NCBI GenBank assembly: GCA_964016885.1
Contig: OZ024755.1
Location: forward strand, 18,476,001 to 18,540,000
Direction of reading: 5' to 3'
DNA: 64,000 nt
Origin: Eledone cirrhosa
Lineage: Eukaryota
Both the position numbers and the translations under genes were made by a program. This document shows positions 1-55,135 of the stretch, piece after piece (the stretch's first letter is position 1; each line of letters starts with the position of its first letter). Below the pieces are notes generated by a model, which saw only the letters and a list, made by a program, of their open reading frames with translations, was not told where the DNA came from and did not search any database.

Positions 1-3000
1 TCAGCAATATAAGCTGCTGTACCAACACCACAAACACATCAGCAATGTGTGCTCCTGTACCAACACCACCAGCAATATAAGCTGCTGTATCAGCACCATC
101 AGCAATATAAGCTGCTGTACCAACACCATCAGCAATGTGTGCTCCTGTACCAACACCACCAGCAATATAAGCTGCTGTATCAGCACCATCAGCAATATAA
201 GCTGCTGTACCAACACCATCAGCAATATAAGCTCCTGTACCAACACCACCAGCAATATAAGCTGCTGTACCAGCACCACCAGCAATATAAGCTGCTGTAT
301 CAACACCATCAGCAATATAAGCTGCTGTACCAGCACCACCAGCAATATAAGCTGCTGTATCAACAACATCAGCAATATAAGCTGCTGTACCAGCACCACC
401 AGCAATATAAGCTGCTGTACCAGCACCATCAGCAATATAAGCTGCTGTACCAACACATCAGCAATATAAGCTGCTGTACCAACAACATCAGCAATATAAG
501 CTGCTGTACCAACACCACCAGCAATATAAGCTGCTGTATCAGCACCATCAGCAATATAAGCTGCTGTACCAACACCATCAGCAATATAAGCTGCTGTACC
601 AACACCATCAGCAATATAAGCTGCTGTACCAACAACATCAGCAATATAAGCTGCTGTACCAACAACATCAGCAATATAAGCTGCTGTACCAACACCACCA
701 GCAATATAAGCTGCTGTATCAGCACCATCAGCAATATAAGCTGCTGTACCAACACCATCAGCAATATAAGCTGCTGTACCAACACCATCAGCAATATAAG
801 CTGCTGTACCAACAACATCAGCAATATAAGCTGCTGTACCAACACCATCAGCAATATAAGCTGCTGTACCAACAACATCAGCAATATAAGCTGCTGTACC
901 AACACCACCAGCAATATAAGCTGCTGTATCAGCACCATCAGCAATATAAGCTGCTGTACCAACACCACCAGCAATATAAGCTGCTGTATCAGCACCATCA
1001 GCAATATAAGCTGCTGTACCAACACCATCAGCAATATAAGCTGCTGTACCAACACCACCAGCAATATAAGCTGCTGTATCAGCACCATCAGCAATATAAG
1101 CTGCTGTACCAACACCACCAGCAATATAAGCTGCTGTATCAGCACCATCAGCAATATAAGCTGCTGTACCAACACCATCAGCAATATAAGCTGCTGTACC
1201 AACACCATCAGCAATATAAGCTGCTGTACCAGCAACATCAGCAATATAAGCTGCTGTACCAGCAACATCAGCAATATAAGCTGCTGTACCAACACCATCA
1301 GCAATATAAGCTGCTGTACCAACAACACCAGCAATATAAGCTGCTGTACCAGCACCACCAGCAATATAAGCTGCTGTACCAACACCACCAGCAATATAAG
1401 CTGCTGTACCAGCACCATCAGCAATATAAGCTGCTGTACCAACACCATCAGCAATATAAGCTGCTGTACCAACACCACCAGCAATATAAACTGCTGTACC
1501 AACACCATCAGCAATATAAGCTGCTGTACCAACAACATCAGCAATATAAGCTGCTGTACCAACAACATCAGCAATATAAGCTGCTGTACCAGCACCATCA
1601 GCAATATAAGCTGCTGTACCAGCACCATCAGCAATATAAGCTGCTGTACCAGCACCATCAGCAATATAAGCTGCTGTACCAACACCATCAGCAATATAAG
1701 CTGCTGTACCAACAACATCAGCAATATAAGCTGCTGTACCAACAACATCAACAATATAAGCTGCTGTACCAACACCATCAGCAATATAAGCTGCTGTACC
1801 AACAACATCAGCAATATAAGCTGCTGTACCAACAACATCAGCAATATAAGCTGCTGTACCAGCACCATCAGCAATATAAGCTGCTGTATCAACACCACCA
1901 GCAATATAAGCTGCTGTATCAACACCATCAGCAATATAAGCTGCTGTACCAACAACATCAGCAATATAAGCTGCTGTACCAGCACCATCAGCAATATAAG
2001 CTGCTGTACCAACACCATCAGCAATATAAGCTGCTGTACCAACACCACCAGCAATATAAGCTGCTGTACCAACAACATCAGCAATATAAGCTGCTGTACC
2101 AGCACCACCAGCAATATAAGCTGCTGTACCAACACCACCAGCAATATAAGCTGCTGTACCAACACATCAGCAATATAAGCTGCTGTATCAACACCACCAG
2201 CAATATAAGCTGCTGTATCAACACCACCAGCAATATAAGCTGCTGTACCAACACCATCAGCAATATAAGCTGCTGTACCAACAACATCAGCAATATAAGC
2301 TGCTGTACCAACACATCAGCAATATAAGCTGCTGTATCAACACCACCAGCAATATAAGCTGCTGTATCAACACCACCAGCAATATAAGCTGCTGTACCAA
2401 CACCATCAGCAATATAAGCTGCTGTACCAACAACATCAGCAATATAAGCTGCTGTACCAGCACCATCAGCAATATAAGCTGCTGTACCAACACCATCAGC
2501 AATATAAGCTGCTGTACCAACAACATCAGCAATATAAGCTGCTGTATCAACACCATCAGCAATGTAAGCTGCTGTACCAACACCATCAGCAATATAAGCT
2601 GCTGTACCAACACCACCAGCAATATAAGCTGCTGTACCAACACATCAGCAATATAAGCTGCTGTACCAACACATCAGCAATATAAGCTGCTGTACCAACA
2701 CATCAGCAATATAAGCTGCTGTACTAGCACCACCAGCAATATAAGCTGCTGTATCAGCACCATCAGCAATATAAGCTGCTGTACCAACACATCAGCAATA
2801 TAAGCTGCTGTACCAACAACATCAGCAATATAAGCTACTGTACCAACAACATCAGCAATATAAGCTACTGTACCAACAACATCAGCAATATAAGCTGCTG
2901 TACCAACACCATCAGCAATATAAGCTGCTGTACCAACACCATCAGCAATATAAGCTGCTGTACCAACACATCAGCAATATAAGCTGCTGTACCAACACCA

Positions 3001-4916
3001 CCAGCAATATAAGCTGCTGTACCAGCACCATCAGCAATATAAGCTGCTGTACCAACAACATCAGCAATATAAGCTGCTGTACCAACACCATCAGCAATAT
3101 AAGCTGCTGTACCAGCACCACCAGCAATATAAGCTGCTGTACCAACACCATCAGCAATATAAGCTGCTGTACCAGCAACATCAGCAATATAAGCTGCTGT
3201 ACCAACAACATCAGCAATATAAGCTGCTGTACCAACACCACCAGCAATATAAGCTGCTGTACCAGCAACATCAGCAATATAAGCTGCTGTACCAGCAACA
3301 TCAGCAATATAAGCTGCTGTACCAGCAACATCAGCAATATAAGCTGCTGTACCAACAACATCAGCAATATAAGCTGCTGTACCAACACATCAGCAATATA
3401 AGCTGCTGTACCAGCACCACCAGCAATATAAGCTGCTGTACCAACACCATCAGCAATATAAGCTGCTGTACCAGCAACATCAGCAATATAAGCTGCTGTA
3501 CCAACAACATCAGCAATATAAGCTGCTGTACCAACACCATCAGCAATATAAGCTGCTGTACCAACACCATCAGCAATATAAGCTGCTGTACCAACAACAT
3601 CAGCAATATAAGCTGCTGTACCAGCACCACCAGCAATATAAGCTGCTGTACCAGCACCATCAGCAATATAAGCTGCTGTACCAACACCATCAGCAATATA
3701 AGCTGCTGTACCAGCAACATCAGCAATATAAGCTGCTGTACCAACACCATCAGCAATATAAGCTGCTGTACCAACACCATCAGCAATATAAGCTGCTGTA
3801 CCAACACCATCAGCAATATAAGCTGCTGTACCAACAACATCAGCAATATAAGCTGCTGTACCAACACCATCAGCAATATAAGCTGCTGTACCAACACCAT
3901 CAGCAATATAAGCTGCTGTACCAACACCATCAGCAATATAAGCTGCTGTACCAGCAACATCAGCAATATAAGCTGCTGTACCAACACCATCAGCAATATA
4001 AGCTCCTGTACCAACACATCAGCAATATAAGCTGCTGTACCAACACCATCAGCAATATAAGCTGCTGTACCAGCACCACCAGCAATATAAGCTGCTGTAC
4101 CAACACATCAGCAATATAAGCTGCTGTATCAGCACCACAAACACATCAGCAATGTGTGCTCCTGTACCAACACCATAGCAATATAAGCTGCTGTACCAAC
4201 ACATCAGCAATATAAGCTGCTGTACCAACACCATCAGCAATATAAGCTGCTGTACCAACACCATAGCAATATAAGCTGCTGTACCAACAACATCAGCAAT
4301 ATAAGCTGCTGTACCAACACCATCAGCAATGTAAGCTGCTGTACCAACATCATTAGCAATATAAGCTGCTGTACCAACACCACAAACACATCAGCAATGT
4401 GTGCTCCTGTACCAGCACCACCAGCAATATAAGCTGCTGTACCAACAACATCAGCAATATAAGCTGCTGTATCAGCACCATCAGCAATGTAAGCTGCTGA
4501 CCCAACACCATCAGCAATATAAGCTGCTGTATCAGCACCACCAGCAATATAAGCTGCTGTATCAGCACCATCAGCAATATAAGCTGCTGTACCAACAACA
4601 TCAGCAATATAAGCTGCTGTACCAACACTACCAGCAATATAAGCTGCTGTACCAACAACATCAGCAATATAAGCTGCTGTATCAACACCATCAGCAATAT
4701 AAGCTGCTGTACCAGCACCATCAACAATATAAGCTGCTGTACCAACACCATCAGCAATATAAGCTGCTGTACCAACAACATCAGCAATATAAGCTGCTGT
4801 ACCAACAACACCAGCAATATAAGCTGCTGTACCAACACCATCAGCAATATAAGCTGCTGTACCAACAACATCAGCAATATAAGCTGCTGTACCAACAACA
4901 TCAGCAATATAAGCTG
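1..4916. repeat. 30-bp minisatellite (consensus TCAGCAATATAAGCTGCTGTACCAACACCA), about 160+ copies, runs off window start
   Basis: Direct tandem periodicity with occasional 28-bp deletion variants; explains all ORFs in 1-4985. Confidence 0.98.
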
Positions 4917-6017: not shown

Positions 6018-6139
6018 AATTGAGTGACACAACTTCAAGTGATTAGCAATTTTAAGACAACTTAACCAATGAAACAATTGTTAATACTGTAAATAAAACC
6101 CTTTTTGTACTGTTAACCATGTTACTTTTCACTCTTTCA

Positions 6140-6190
<51 letters not shown>

Positions 6191-6483: not shown

Positions 6484-6686
6484 ATAGGAAAAGAGTCAGG
6501 ACCCCAACGGTTGAGCTCCGGCCGTTTCGACAGCTAGATCGGAACAGTTCAGATCTAGCTGTCGAATTGGCTGGAGCTCAGCCATCGGGGTCTTGACTCT
6601 GTTCCTATTACCCACTCTTTTATCCTAAGTATCGAGTACTCTGGTGCGTTATGGTCCACCTGGTTTCTTACCACACTTTCTTTGTT
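6484..6686 (+). mobile_element. Palindromic (TA)n-embedded element, family A (probable Penelope-like pLTR remnant)
   Basis: About 57-bp imperfect inverted arms (6484-6608) plus an 80-bp tail with TATCGAGTAC; related copies at 23978-24130 and 54678-54870; flanked by (TA)n. Confidence 0.65.
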
Positions 6687-6721
6687 ATATATATATATAT
6701 ATATATATAAAATAATGGTGA

Positions 6722-7039
6722 TTAAGATGCGATTAAATCACCATAATTGTTTATTGCATTATATATATTTCTGTTACATGGTTATGCATATCAGATGCTT
6801 ATACAATCATAGGTCTAGTTATGCAATCATGGAGATATGTCACTGGTCGTGTATTACCATCCAGACATATATCATCACTGTCATCACAACTGGATGGTAA
6901 TACATGCCGAGCAGCATATCCCCAATTGCATACTTACACCTATGATTATATGAGCATCTGATGAAGTCCCATGCATAACCATGAAGCAGAAATATATATC
7001 ATGCAATAAAGCAATTATGGTGAAGTAACTCCATCTTAA
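6722..7039. mobile_element. About 320-bp imperfect foldback between (TA)n tracts, family B (probable Penelope-like inverted pLTR)
   Basis: Arms pair along their length (e.g. TGTATTACCATCCAG/CTGGATGGTAATACA; CACCATAATTG/CAATTATGGTG), loop about 6865-6889; right arm holds a hammerhead core. Confidence 0.65.
6954..7004 (+). ncRNA. Minimal type I hammerhead ribozyme motif (degenerate stem II)
   Basis: GCAT-CTGATGA-(stem II)-GAAA-TATATA-TC-ATGC: stem I GCAT/ATGC, palindromic stem III, AUC cleavage triplet, followed by AATAAA. Confidence 0.6.
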
Positions 7040-7056
7040 CTACTATTAATTTGTTT

Positions 7057-7141
<85 letters not shown>

Positions 7142-12231: not shown

Positions 12232-12340
12232 AGGTACTCAATATGATAGTAGTAGAGTATATATTCATTTTATTATAGAAATGACTTCTACAAGACTAGA
12301 ACTGTTTCATTCATAAAAAAATCATCAGGAAAGTCCTTGA
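12232..12340 (-). mobile_element. Penelope-like pLTR remnant, family C
   Basis: Homologous to the 57553-57740 element, including the TATTGAGTAC tail motif. Confidence 0.6.
12283..12335 (-). ncRNA. Type I hammerhead ribozyme motif
   Basis: Minus: GACTTTC-CTGATGA-TTTTTTTATGAAT-GAA-ACAG-TTCTAGTC-TTGT-A-GAAGTC; stems I and III pair, GUA cleavage site, weak stem II. Confidence 0.55.
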
Positions 12341-23977: not shown

Positions 23978-24127
23978 AAATTCTGGACTCAAGTCCAGAA
24001 TTAGCCGTCGAAACGGCTTGAGCTCAGCCGTCGGGGTCCTACTCATTCCTATTACCCACTGTACTACCCTAAGTATTGAGTACTTTGGTGCGTTATGGTC
24101 CATCTGGTTCCTTACCACATTTCCTTC

Positions 24128-24130
<3 letters not shown>
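23978..24130 (+). mobile_element. Family A (TA)n-embedded element (Penelope-like remnant)
   Basis: Hairpin AATTCTGGAC-TCAA-GTCCAGAATT, then GAAACGGC...GCCGTC and the tail shared with the 6484 and 54678 copies. Confidence 0.65.
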
Positions 24131-24169
<39 letters not shown>

Positions 24170-24203
24170 GAAAAATCAGTGATGCATCTGAACTCAATTT
24201 ATT

Positions 24204-24291
24204 GTGTTACAATTATTTTGGCGGCGGACAGCTCGAGACCCGATCCTTGTGTGGATCTGTCTGACTCTGGACCTGCGGGCTCGTCGGACAC
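24204..24291 (-). ncRNA. Decayed hammerhead-like motif
   Basis: Minus: GTGT-CCGACGA-(long insert)-AAAA-TAATTG-TA-ACAC-AATAAA; two core substitutions, so probably inactive. Confidence 0.35.
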
Positions 24292-24419
24292 TTCCAATGC
24301 TTTCGTTTTATATTATATCATACTCTGCTCTGTAAGAGCATAGAGTGCTCAACCGTCATACCGCCTATGGAAGCATCTTAGCTACCATCAGACACACACA
24401 TATATATATATATATATAT

Positions 24420-54527: not shown

Positions 54528-54560
<33 letters not shown>

Positions 54561-54561
<1 letters not shown>

Positions 54562-54573
54562 CGGCTTGAACTC

Positions 54574-54619
<46 letters not shown>

Positions 54620-54870
54620 GGCTTGAACTCAGCCGTCAGGGTCCTACTCGTTCCTATATATATATATATATATATATATAGGAATGAGTAGGACCCCGAC
54701 GGCTGAGCTCAAGCCGTTTCGACGGCTAATTCGTCCAGAATTAGCCGTCGAAACGGCTTGAGCTCAGCCGTCGGGGTCCTACTTGTTCCTATTACCCACT
54801 CTACTACCCTAAGTATTGAGTACTTTGGTGCGTTATGGTCCATCTGGTTCCTTACCACATTTCCTTCGTT
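54561..54870 (+). mobile_element. Family A palindromic element with two upstream truncated copies in (TA)n
   Basis: 55-bp arms 54678-54732 / 54738-54792 (2 mismatches), plus tail; partial copies at 54561 and 54618. Confidence 0.7.
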
Positions 54871-54905
<35 letters not shown>

Positions 54906-54954
54906 AAATAAAGTTAAATAAAAGTCAACTGTTTAAAATTTAGCTTCGTTTATT

Positions 54955-55009
54955 ACTGCTATATATATTTCAGTGACAGCCATCTTTGGCTGGGACCTCT
55001 TCAGGCAGT
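54955..55009 (-). ncRNA. Minimal type I hammerhead ribozyme motif (best preserved in window)
   Basis: Minus: ACTGC-CTGAAGA-GGTCCCAGCCA-AAGA-TGGCTGTCACT-GAAA-TATATA-TA-GCAGT-AATAAA; perfect 5-bp stem I, 6-bp distal stem II, palindromic stem III, AUA site. Confidence 0.72.
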
Positions 55010-55135
55010 TTGAATTAGTGTGGTATAGACAAGTACATATGTTGTTTAGGTGTATAATATTGTCAGTCCTCTGATATGCCCAGTTCCTTGTTGGGTTGTT
55101 ATTTCACTGAGGAACTGTGTGTGTATATATATATA

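What the first reader, a model, noticed from the sequence alone, without database searches (positions are those of the whole stretch)
6484..7039. Recurrent two-module architecture: family A element, then (TA)n, then an oppositely oriented hammerhead+AATAAA unit, at three loci
Seen: at 6484-7039, 23978-24291 and 54678-55009, the family A tail (...CTTACCACA.TT.CTT...) is followed by a TA tract and then a minus-oriented unit of the form stem I-CYGANGA-stem II-RAAA-palindromic stem III-UH-stem I'-AATAAA. At the first locus the minus copy is the partly deleted left arm of a foldback whose right arm has the intact motif. Established: Penelope-like retroelements carry minimal hammerheads in their pLTRs and often insert with inverted pLTR pieces. 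Inference: either several PLE or retrozyme-like families share (TA)n targeting and stack tail-to-tail, or this is an undescribed composite non-autonomous ribozyme element. With only three loci, chance co-targeting is not excluded.
Basis: partly seen in the sequence, partly recalled or inferred. Interest (0 to 1): 0.75.

Follow-up and report, generated by a model that had tools for sequence, protein, structure and literature searches.

The report
Unrelated Penelope ends sharing TA repeats
The paired units are cut-short ends of four different jumping-gene families (three traced to Penelope-type elements) that sit in TA repeats, and across the genome they lie side by side no more often than at any TA repeat, so they are likely chance neighbours and not a new composite element.

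Summary
The three arrangements are in the sequence and the hammerhead motifs are not chance (3 observed, 0 in 30 shuffles). They do not form a composite element. The three downstream units belong to three separate families. Two were traced to Hydra-type frames; the third was not. A facing hammerhead unit follows 5 of 89 family A tails and 51 of 841 random TA-tract sides (p = 1.0). Genome-wide, one abundant unit faces A's tail, A's other end and an unrelated repeat at 0.309, 0.303 and 0.293%. The facing orientation is general at TA tracts (51 against 9). About 2 to 9 windows with three such pairs are expected in this genome. The scan has already reported this kind of Penelope end on other DNA of this genome. 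Side finding: 56 of 89 short A copies stop inside the ribozyme's stem II region.

The parts
6484..6685 (+). Family A, diverged copy: inverted tail-less arm 6484-6536, junction, forward arm 6546-6685 with the 3' half of a hammerhead and a 77-nt tail; end of a Hydra-clade Penelope-like element
   Evidence: 84-86% to the full-length element L145
6686..6709 (.). (TA)n tract shared by A and B1
6710..6864 (-). B1 left arm, tail-less; hammerhead 6756-6798 with an 8-nt deletion that removes core G8/A9; AATAAA at 6750-6755
6862..7058 (+). B1 right arm, tail-less; hammerhead 6954-7004 with weakened stem II; AATAAA 7005-7010; parent reading frame not found
23979..24129 (+). Family A: 24-nt hairpin at the start, forward arm 23992-24129 with tail
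   Evidence: 98% to L025
24130..24165 (.). (TA)n tract shared by A and B2
24166..24305 (-). B2 inverted tail-less arm; hammerhead 24204-24291 with long stem II, G12 mutated; end of a second Hydra-type element
24301..24390 (+). B2 tail piece on the plus strand, followed by (CA)n/(TA)n
54618..54657 (+). 40-nt fragment of family A between TA tracts, ending at the tail-less end site
54678..54870 (+). Family A foldback: inverted tail-less arm 54678-54732, forward arm 54730-54870 with tail
   Evidence: 95% to L145, 97% to L025
54871..54905 (.). (CA)n/(TA)n tract shared by A and B3
54906..55085 (-). B3 tail-less end; near-typical hammerhead 54955-55009 and AATAAA; end of a third Hydra-type element
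   Evidence: 95% over 214 nt to L361

Best explanation
Each locus holds two likely independent, 5'-truncated insertions of different hammerhead-bearing retroelement families (three of the four traced to Hydra-clade Penelope-like elements) on either side of one TA tract. Shown: family A lies at the unit junction of tandem elements of 3.53-3.54 kb with a 784-residue RT plus C-terminal GIY-YIG-type frame; B2 and B3 are joined to Hydra-type frame ends by UTRs of about 1.9 and 1.2 kb; copies of these families end at two fixed sites (with or without a tail of about 77-130 nt), mostly at TA repeats, and are often head-to-head foldbacks. Inferred from published work: the element's endonuclease cuts (TA)n, and reverse transcription starts at two internal RNA sites and is often cut short, so both ends of an insertion present an outward-pointing pLTR end. 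A TA tract that has been hit twice therefore tends to show two ends pointing into it. With more than 23,000 exact A tails and roughly one strict hammerhead unit per 22 kb, such pairs arise at about 6% of TA-tract sides.
For: Parent of A: (intact frames, tandem period 3542 or 3528 bp). Hydra motifs in that frame: RWR, DKT, CxCX5C, CxxC-E, CxH, matching section 11 and the supplement alignment of PMC8557442 by eye. B2 parent. B3 parent. Co-occurrence: 5 of 89 A tails against 51 of 841 random TA sides; pooled 7 of 134 (p = 0.85); strict descriptor alone 0 of 89 against 20 of 841. Exact genome-wide counts: 73/23,629, 31/10,237 and 8/2,733 (chi-square p = 0.99). The exact A-B3 pair occurs 9 times at A's tail and 3 times at its other end (p = 1.0). 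Compensatory changes in the hammerhead stems.
Against: Three of three A tails in one window is rare (0.06 cubed is about 2e-4) and local density does not explain it: 14 of 304 neighbouring TA sides and 0 of 6 neighbouring A tails have a facing unit. It is accounted for only by the number of windows in the genome (2 to 9 expected). The reciprocal count is higher but not significant (3 of 87 against 11 of 841, p = 0.14). B1 was not tied to a reading frame. Pfam and PDB searches did not recognise the A frame, so the clade call rests on motifs and a by-eye comparison, with no tree. The 89 copies come from the first 25 Mb of one chromosome and are exact-match (young) copies.
Confidence: 0.92

Rival explanations
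1. A, the TA tract and the inverted hammerhead unit form one composite non-autonomous element that moves as a whole.
For: 3 of 3 A tails in this window; 73 and 9 exact A-tail pairs with two hammerhead families genome-wide.
Against: The partner differs at each locus; the rates equal those at A's other end, at an unrelated repeat and at random tracts; tract lengths in the listed pairs vary; A and two of the three partners have their own autonomous parents.
Confidence: 0.02
2. Insertions are independent, but a TA tract made or lengthened by one Penelope-like insertion is a modestly better target for the next, which gives a small excess of pairs.
For: Reciprocal count 3 of 87 against 11 of 841 (odds ratio 2.7, p = 0.14); the 95% interval of 5/89 reaches 12.6%.
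Against: Exact genome-wide rates are equal for A ends and for an unrelated TA-flanking repeat, and equal to 3 of 805 random tracts of at least five TA units.
Confidence: 0.06

Closest known systems
Hydra clade of C-terminal endonuclease Penelope-like elements, e.g. Hydra-1_Obim (Craig et al. 2021, PMC8557442; seen: sections 6 and 11, search passages, supplement part 2 and search rows)
   Same: RT then C-terminal endonuclease, DKT, CxCX5C linker, CxxC and CxH motifs, (TA)n insertion, hammerhead near the 3' end, tandem and inverted 5'-truncated copies, one-sided tail.
   Different: A's parent is 3.5 kb (paper: generally under 3 kb), has RWR for RWK, a tail of 77 nt (paper: 30-40 bp for PLEs), and a U3-A8 core with a long stem II; the Hydra hammerheads in File S2 have C3-G8 cores and short stems. 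The hammerheads of these families differ from the one listed for Hydra-1_Obim.
[quoted passage not shown]
   Same: Type I motif, stem I of 4-5 bp, palindromic minimal stem III, thousands of dispersed single motifs, opposite-strand pairs 100-700 bp apart, U3-A8 variant reported in Schistosoma.
   Different: Here the opposite-strand neighbours belong to different families across a TA tract; no cleavage was tested.
Two-site internal initiation and tail of Poseidon_Ac (Frangieh et al. 2024, PMC11167929; seen: parts 1-2 of 4)
   Same: Two fixed end sites that define a tail; AT-rich targets; both DNA strands cut and extended in vitro.
   Different: Different clade; that work does not describe a 5' stop cluster inside the ribozyme in the parts read.
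Metazoan non-LTR retrozymes (bioRxiv 10.64898/2026.07.22.740005; seen: part 1 of 5)
   Same: Short non-coding repeats with a type I hammerhead related to PLE pLTRs.
   Different: Retrozymes are tandem arrays of a short unit; the units here are single or inverted ends, and three of four continue upstream into a coding element.

Membership tests
Hydra-clade PLE (parent of family A) | Single frame with RT and C-terminal GIY-YIG-type endonuclease, no N-terminal endonuclease | tested here: met
   784-residue frame, YRDD at 415, NVIY...YIG from 657; Pfam gave no direct hit (one homologue weakly GIY-YIG)
Hydra-clade PLE (parent of family A) | DKT motif, RWK motif, CxCX5C linker, CxxC and CxH around the catalytic E and N | tested here: met
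   DKT 184, RWR 104 (variant), CxCX5C 639, CNLC-SE 737, CKH 765
Hydra-clade PLE (parent of family A) | (TA)n insertion preference | tested here: met
   23,629 exact tail-plus-TA matches; flanks of 30 loci
Hydra-clade PLE (parent of family A) | Hammerhead in the pLTR | tested here: met
   U3-A8 type I motif read by eye in L141, L143, L144, L145, L146; the minimum-energy fold recovers only part of it; activity untested
Hydra-clade PLE (parent of family A) | Placement in the Hydra clade on an RT tree with reference elements | not tested
   Compared by eye with supplement sequences only
Hydra-clade PLE (B2, B3) | Unit continuous upstream with a Hydra-type frame | tested here: met
   B2: L252 frame end plus UTR, shared with L251; B3: L358 and L361, 94% alike; these frames are broken
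Penelope-like element (B1) | Unit continuous upstream with an RT/endonuclease frame | tested here: inconclusive
   Shared upstream sequence of about 0.8 kb, a tail and foldbacks, but no linked frame in 12 loci and 12 longer stretches
Naiad clade | N-terminal endonuclease, DKA motif, no hammerhead | tested here: not met
   The endonuclease is C-terminal, the motif is DKT and a hammerhead is present
Non-LTR retrozyme | Tandem short units each with a hammerhead, no coding parent in cis | tested here: not met
   Not met for A, B2 and B3; open for B1
Composite non-autonomous element (proposed) | Co-occurrence and orientation above random TA tracts, with a constant partner | tested here: not met
Hammerhead ribozyme | Self-cleavage | not testable with these tools
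   Structure and covariation only; three of the four window B copies carry damaging changes

The most novel reading that the evidence does not exclude
The ribozyme fold itself sets where copying stops. In family A, 56 of 89 copies end their forward arm 26-45 nt upstream of the predicted cleavage site, inside stem II/loop II. The junctions are nearly all different (44 kinds in 49) and the two arms of one insertion are more alike than arms of different insertions (0.9 against 2.6 differences). This would mean that both cut DNA strands prime on the same uncleaved RNA from the two tail sites, both stall at the hammerhead, and the two cDNA ends are joined, so that a MITE-like 190-bp hairpin is made anew at each insertion.
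Probability: 0.3. Interest if true: 0.45.

Novelty: new member of a known kind. Interest (0 to 1): 0.14.

Why it matters
The finding as proposed does not hold, which removes a candidate new element class. What remains is a set of very abundant Hydra-clade families, one young and with many intact frames, that could serve for tests of (TA)n targeting and two-site initiation. The stop cluster in loop II, if real, would give the PLE hammerhead a role other than cleavage.

Tried and rejected
Rfam found no hammerhead among the rows shown. I first took A's parent for a Naiad, then for Nematis-like (both recalled labels); the endonuclease position and the motifs of PMC8557442 point to Hydra. The frame next to B3 in L247/L286 was first taken as B3's parent and rejected because a TA array separates them. 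The frame pieces near B1 in L254 were rejected as its parent because other insertions and a TA tract intervene. An apparent fixed 5' end of B3 (43 of 73 copies reach one site) is not the family's limit, since several copies run further upstream. Pfam and PDB searches with the A frame and an alignment of 34 proteins (33 of the 120 listed homologues) gave nothing useful. Two doubtful singleton families (F11, F14) were dropped from the hammerhead library before counting. Three paper searches listed no paper on these families; only titles and abstract starts were seen for papers not read, and bioRxiv supplements were not available. PMC13282606 was seen as search passages only and was not used for any claim.

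Full report
Observation. The three loci read as described. A descriptor scan found hammerhead-plus-AATAAA units at + 6954-7004, - 24204-24291 and - 54955-55009, and one poor fourth match at - 12285-12332. With stem I of at least 4 bp and a 6-nt stem III segment, the window holds 3 motifs against 0 in 30 shuffles. Family A has three tail-bearing copies and a 40-nt fragment. The three downstream units (B1, B2, B3) do not match each other by blastn. Across B1- and B3-type copies, 5 of 13 named pairs change on both sides, four of them in stem I, and slid controls lose pairing (the shuffle control for that measure is not significant, 169 of 500). In B2-type copies 8 of 28 predicted pairs change on both sides. 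The window copies are partly decayed: an 8-nt core deletion (B1 left), a weak stem II (B1 right), G12 lost (B2); B3 is near typical.

What family A is. The genome is 3.0 Gb; an octopus-like host is my inference from recalled repeats and earlier notes, and was not tested. One A locus carried an RT fragment, which led to 150 scored matches at 95-100% identity, many in frames of about 784 codons. In six fetched stretches A lies at the junction of tandem units of 3528-3542 bp, and terminal copies end either at a tail-less site or 77 nt further on. The frame has RWR, DKT, YRDD, a CxCX5C linker, a GIY-YIG-like segment, CxxC and CxH. These are the Hydra-clade marks in section 11 of PMC8557442, and the sequence follows the Hydra alignment in its supplement by eye. 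Homologue search gave 2,054 proteins at E of 1e-20 or better, nearly all of the 120 listed unnamed. Full-length copies show a type I hammerhead with a U3-A8 core, a long stem II and a GUC site, so A is itself a truncated ribozyme-bearing pLTR. Two longer copies of the short-copy subfamily have a mismatched C3-A8 core (L020, L025).

What the B units are. Each has hundreds of candidate copies that end either at a tail-less site or after a tail, mostly followed by TA or CA repeats, and often as foldbacks. B2 continues through a UTR of about 1.9 kb to a Hydra-type endonuclease end (L252, confirmed by L251). B3 continues through about 1.2 kb to Hydra-type frames in L358 and L361. B1 has a tail, foldbacks and about 0.8 kb of shared upstream sequence, but no frame was found. 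At locus 2 the minus unit is the inverted arm and the tail lies to its right on the plus strand, so that pair is not truly tail-to-tail.

Test of co-occurrence. I used 89 of the 100 A tails listed by an exact pattern search (position-ordered, first 25 Mb of C1), 29 best-scoring copies, 59 hand-picked 10-kb control stretches over many chromosomes and 20 stretches beside the window. Units were detected within 300 nt by blastn to a library of 186 descriptor hits in 15 clusters, two dropped. The nearest unit was facing for 5 of 89 A tails, 2 of 54 other A ends, 1 of 29 and 4 of 21 in the best-scoring set, 51 of 841 random TA sides, 14 of 304 neighbouring TA sides and 11 of 472 positions not anchored on TA. 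The library includes hits from the control set, which may raise its rate; the descriptor alone gave 0 of 89 against 20 of 841. A copies inside the control and neighbouring stretches gave 1 of 16 tails and 0 of 17 other ends (the end-finding pattern missed at least one case). Exact counts over the whole genome agree. A 16-nt word of the commonest hammerhead family faces A's tail in 73 of 23,629 cases, A's tail-less end in 31 of 10,237, and an unrelated TA-flanking repeat in 8 of 2,733 (p = 0.99; the denominators use slightly longer patterns than the numerators). The B3 word gives 9 and 3. Reciprocally, 3 of 87 B ends face an A tail against 11 of 841 (p = 0.14).

Orientation. At random TA sides the nearest unit faces the tract 51 times against 9; at A tails 6 against 5. 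The bias is a property of TA tracts: pLTR ends abut the target, and inverted arms make both ends of an insertion point outward.

Why three of three here. The per-tail rate of about 6% makes this window unusual (2e-4), and local density is not raised. Over about 47,000 windows, 2 to 9 with three or more pairs are expected, depending on the A density assumed. A scan that reports striking windows will meet some of them.

Mechanism. Shown: family identities, two-site ends, TA flanks, foldbacks, background co-occurrence. Taken from papers: (TA)n preference, tandem and inverted structure and the tail (PMC8557442), two internal RT start sites with both strands cut and extended (PMC11167929), minimal dimer-type hammerheads in pLTRs (PMC4209133). 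Inferred: that each module here is a separate insertion by such an enzyme. The order of insertion was not determined.

Side finding. Of 89 A copies, 56 have a forward arm that stops 26-45 nt upstream of the predicted cleavage site, and 57 have an inverted arm ending at the tail-less site; a second reference gave the same cluster. Junctions are of 44 kinds in 49, and arms differ by 0.9 positions within an insertion against 2.6 between insertions in 35 copies. A short master copy with later deletions at the hairpin tip, or gene conversion between arms, is not excluded.

Earlier notes of the scan describe the same kind of Penelope ends in this genome and gave me the Hydra lead, which I then checked against the paper.

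Verdict: real motifs, known kind of element, no composite. Interest 0.14.

Noticed in passing
family A copies, L256-L345; window 6537-6545, 54720-54735: The 5' stops of short A foldbacks cluster in the hammerhead's stem II/loop II (56 of 89), with nearly unique junctions, several of them perfect palindromes.
   Followed up: partly
L141-L146 (e.g. L145:1797-1905, minus): The young full-length family has a U3-A8 hammerhead core with a long stem II; a sister subfamily (L020, L025) has a mismatched C3-A8 core.
   Followed up: partly
window 54559-54573 and 54618-54657: Tiny family A fragments (about 15 and 40 nt) set between TA tracts just upstream of the locus 3 copy.
   Followed up: no
L013, about 1630-2030: A foldback downstream of an A tail whose centre is a run of CCCTAA (telomere-like) units.
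   Followed up: no
L061-L090, L226-L250: 43 of 73 B3 copies reach one site about 110 nt upstream of the ribozyme region, and many start or flip there, although longer copies exist; a second possible stop hotspot.
   Followed up: partly
window about 6050-6143, minus strand: A further degenerate hammerhead-family end (library cluster F5) faces the TA tract at 6143-6187 and has no A copy beside it.
   Followed up: no
L286:5982-8321 (minus): Another Hydra-type frame of 779 residues (about 40% identical to A's) with a long insert, followed by a UTR and a compact hammerhead motif.
   Followed up: partly
window 33-4916: A 30-bp satellite of about 163 copies; many other minisatellites lie in the window.
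   Followed up: no
L248:2069-3556: An open frame of tandem C2H2 zinc fingers.
   Followed up: no
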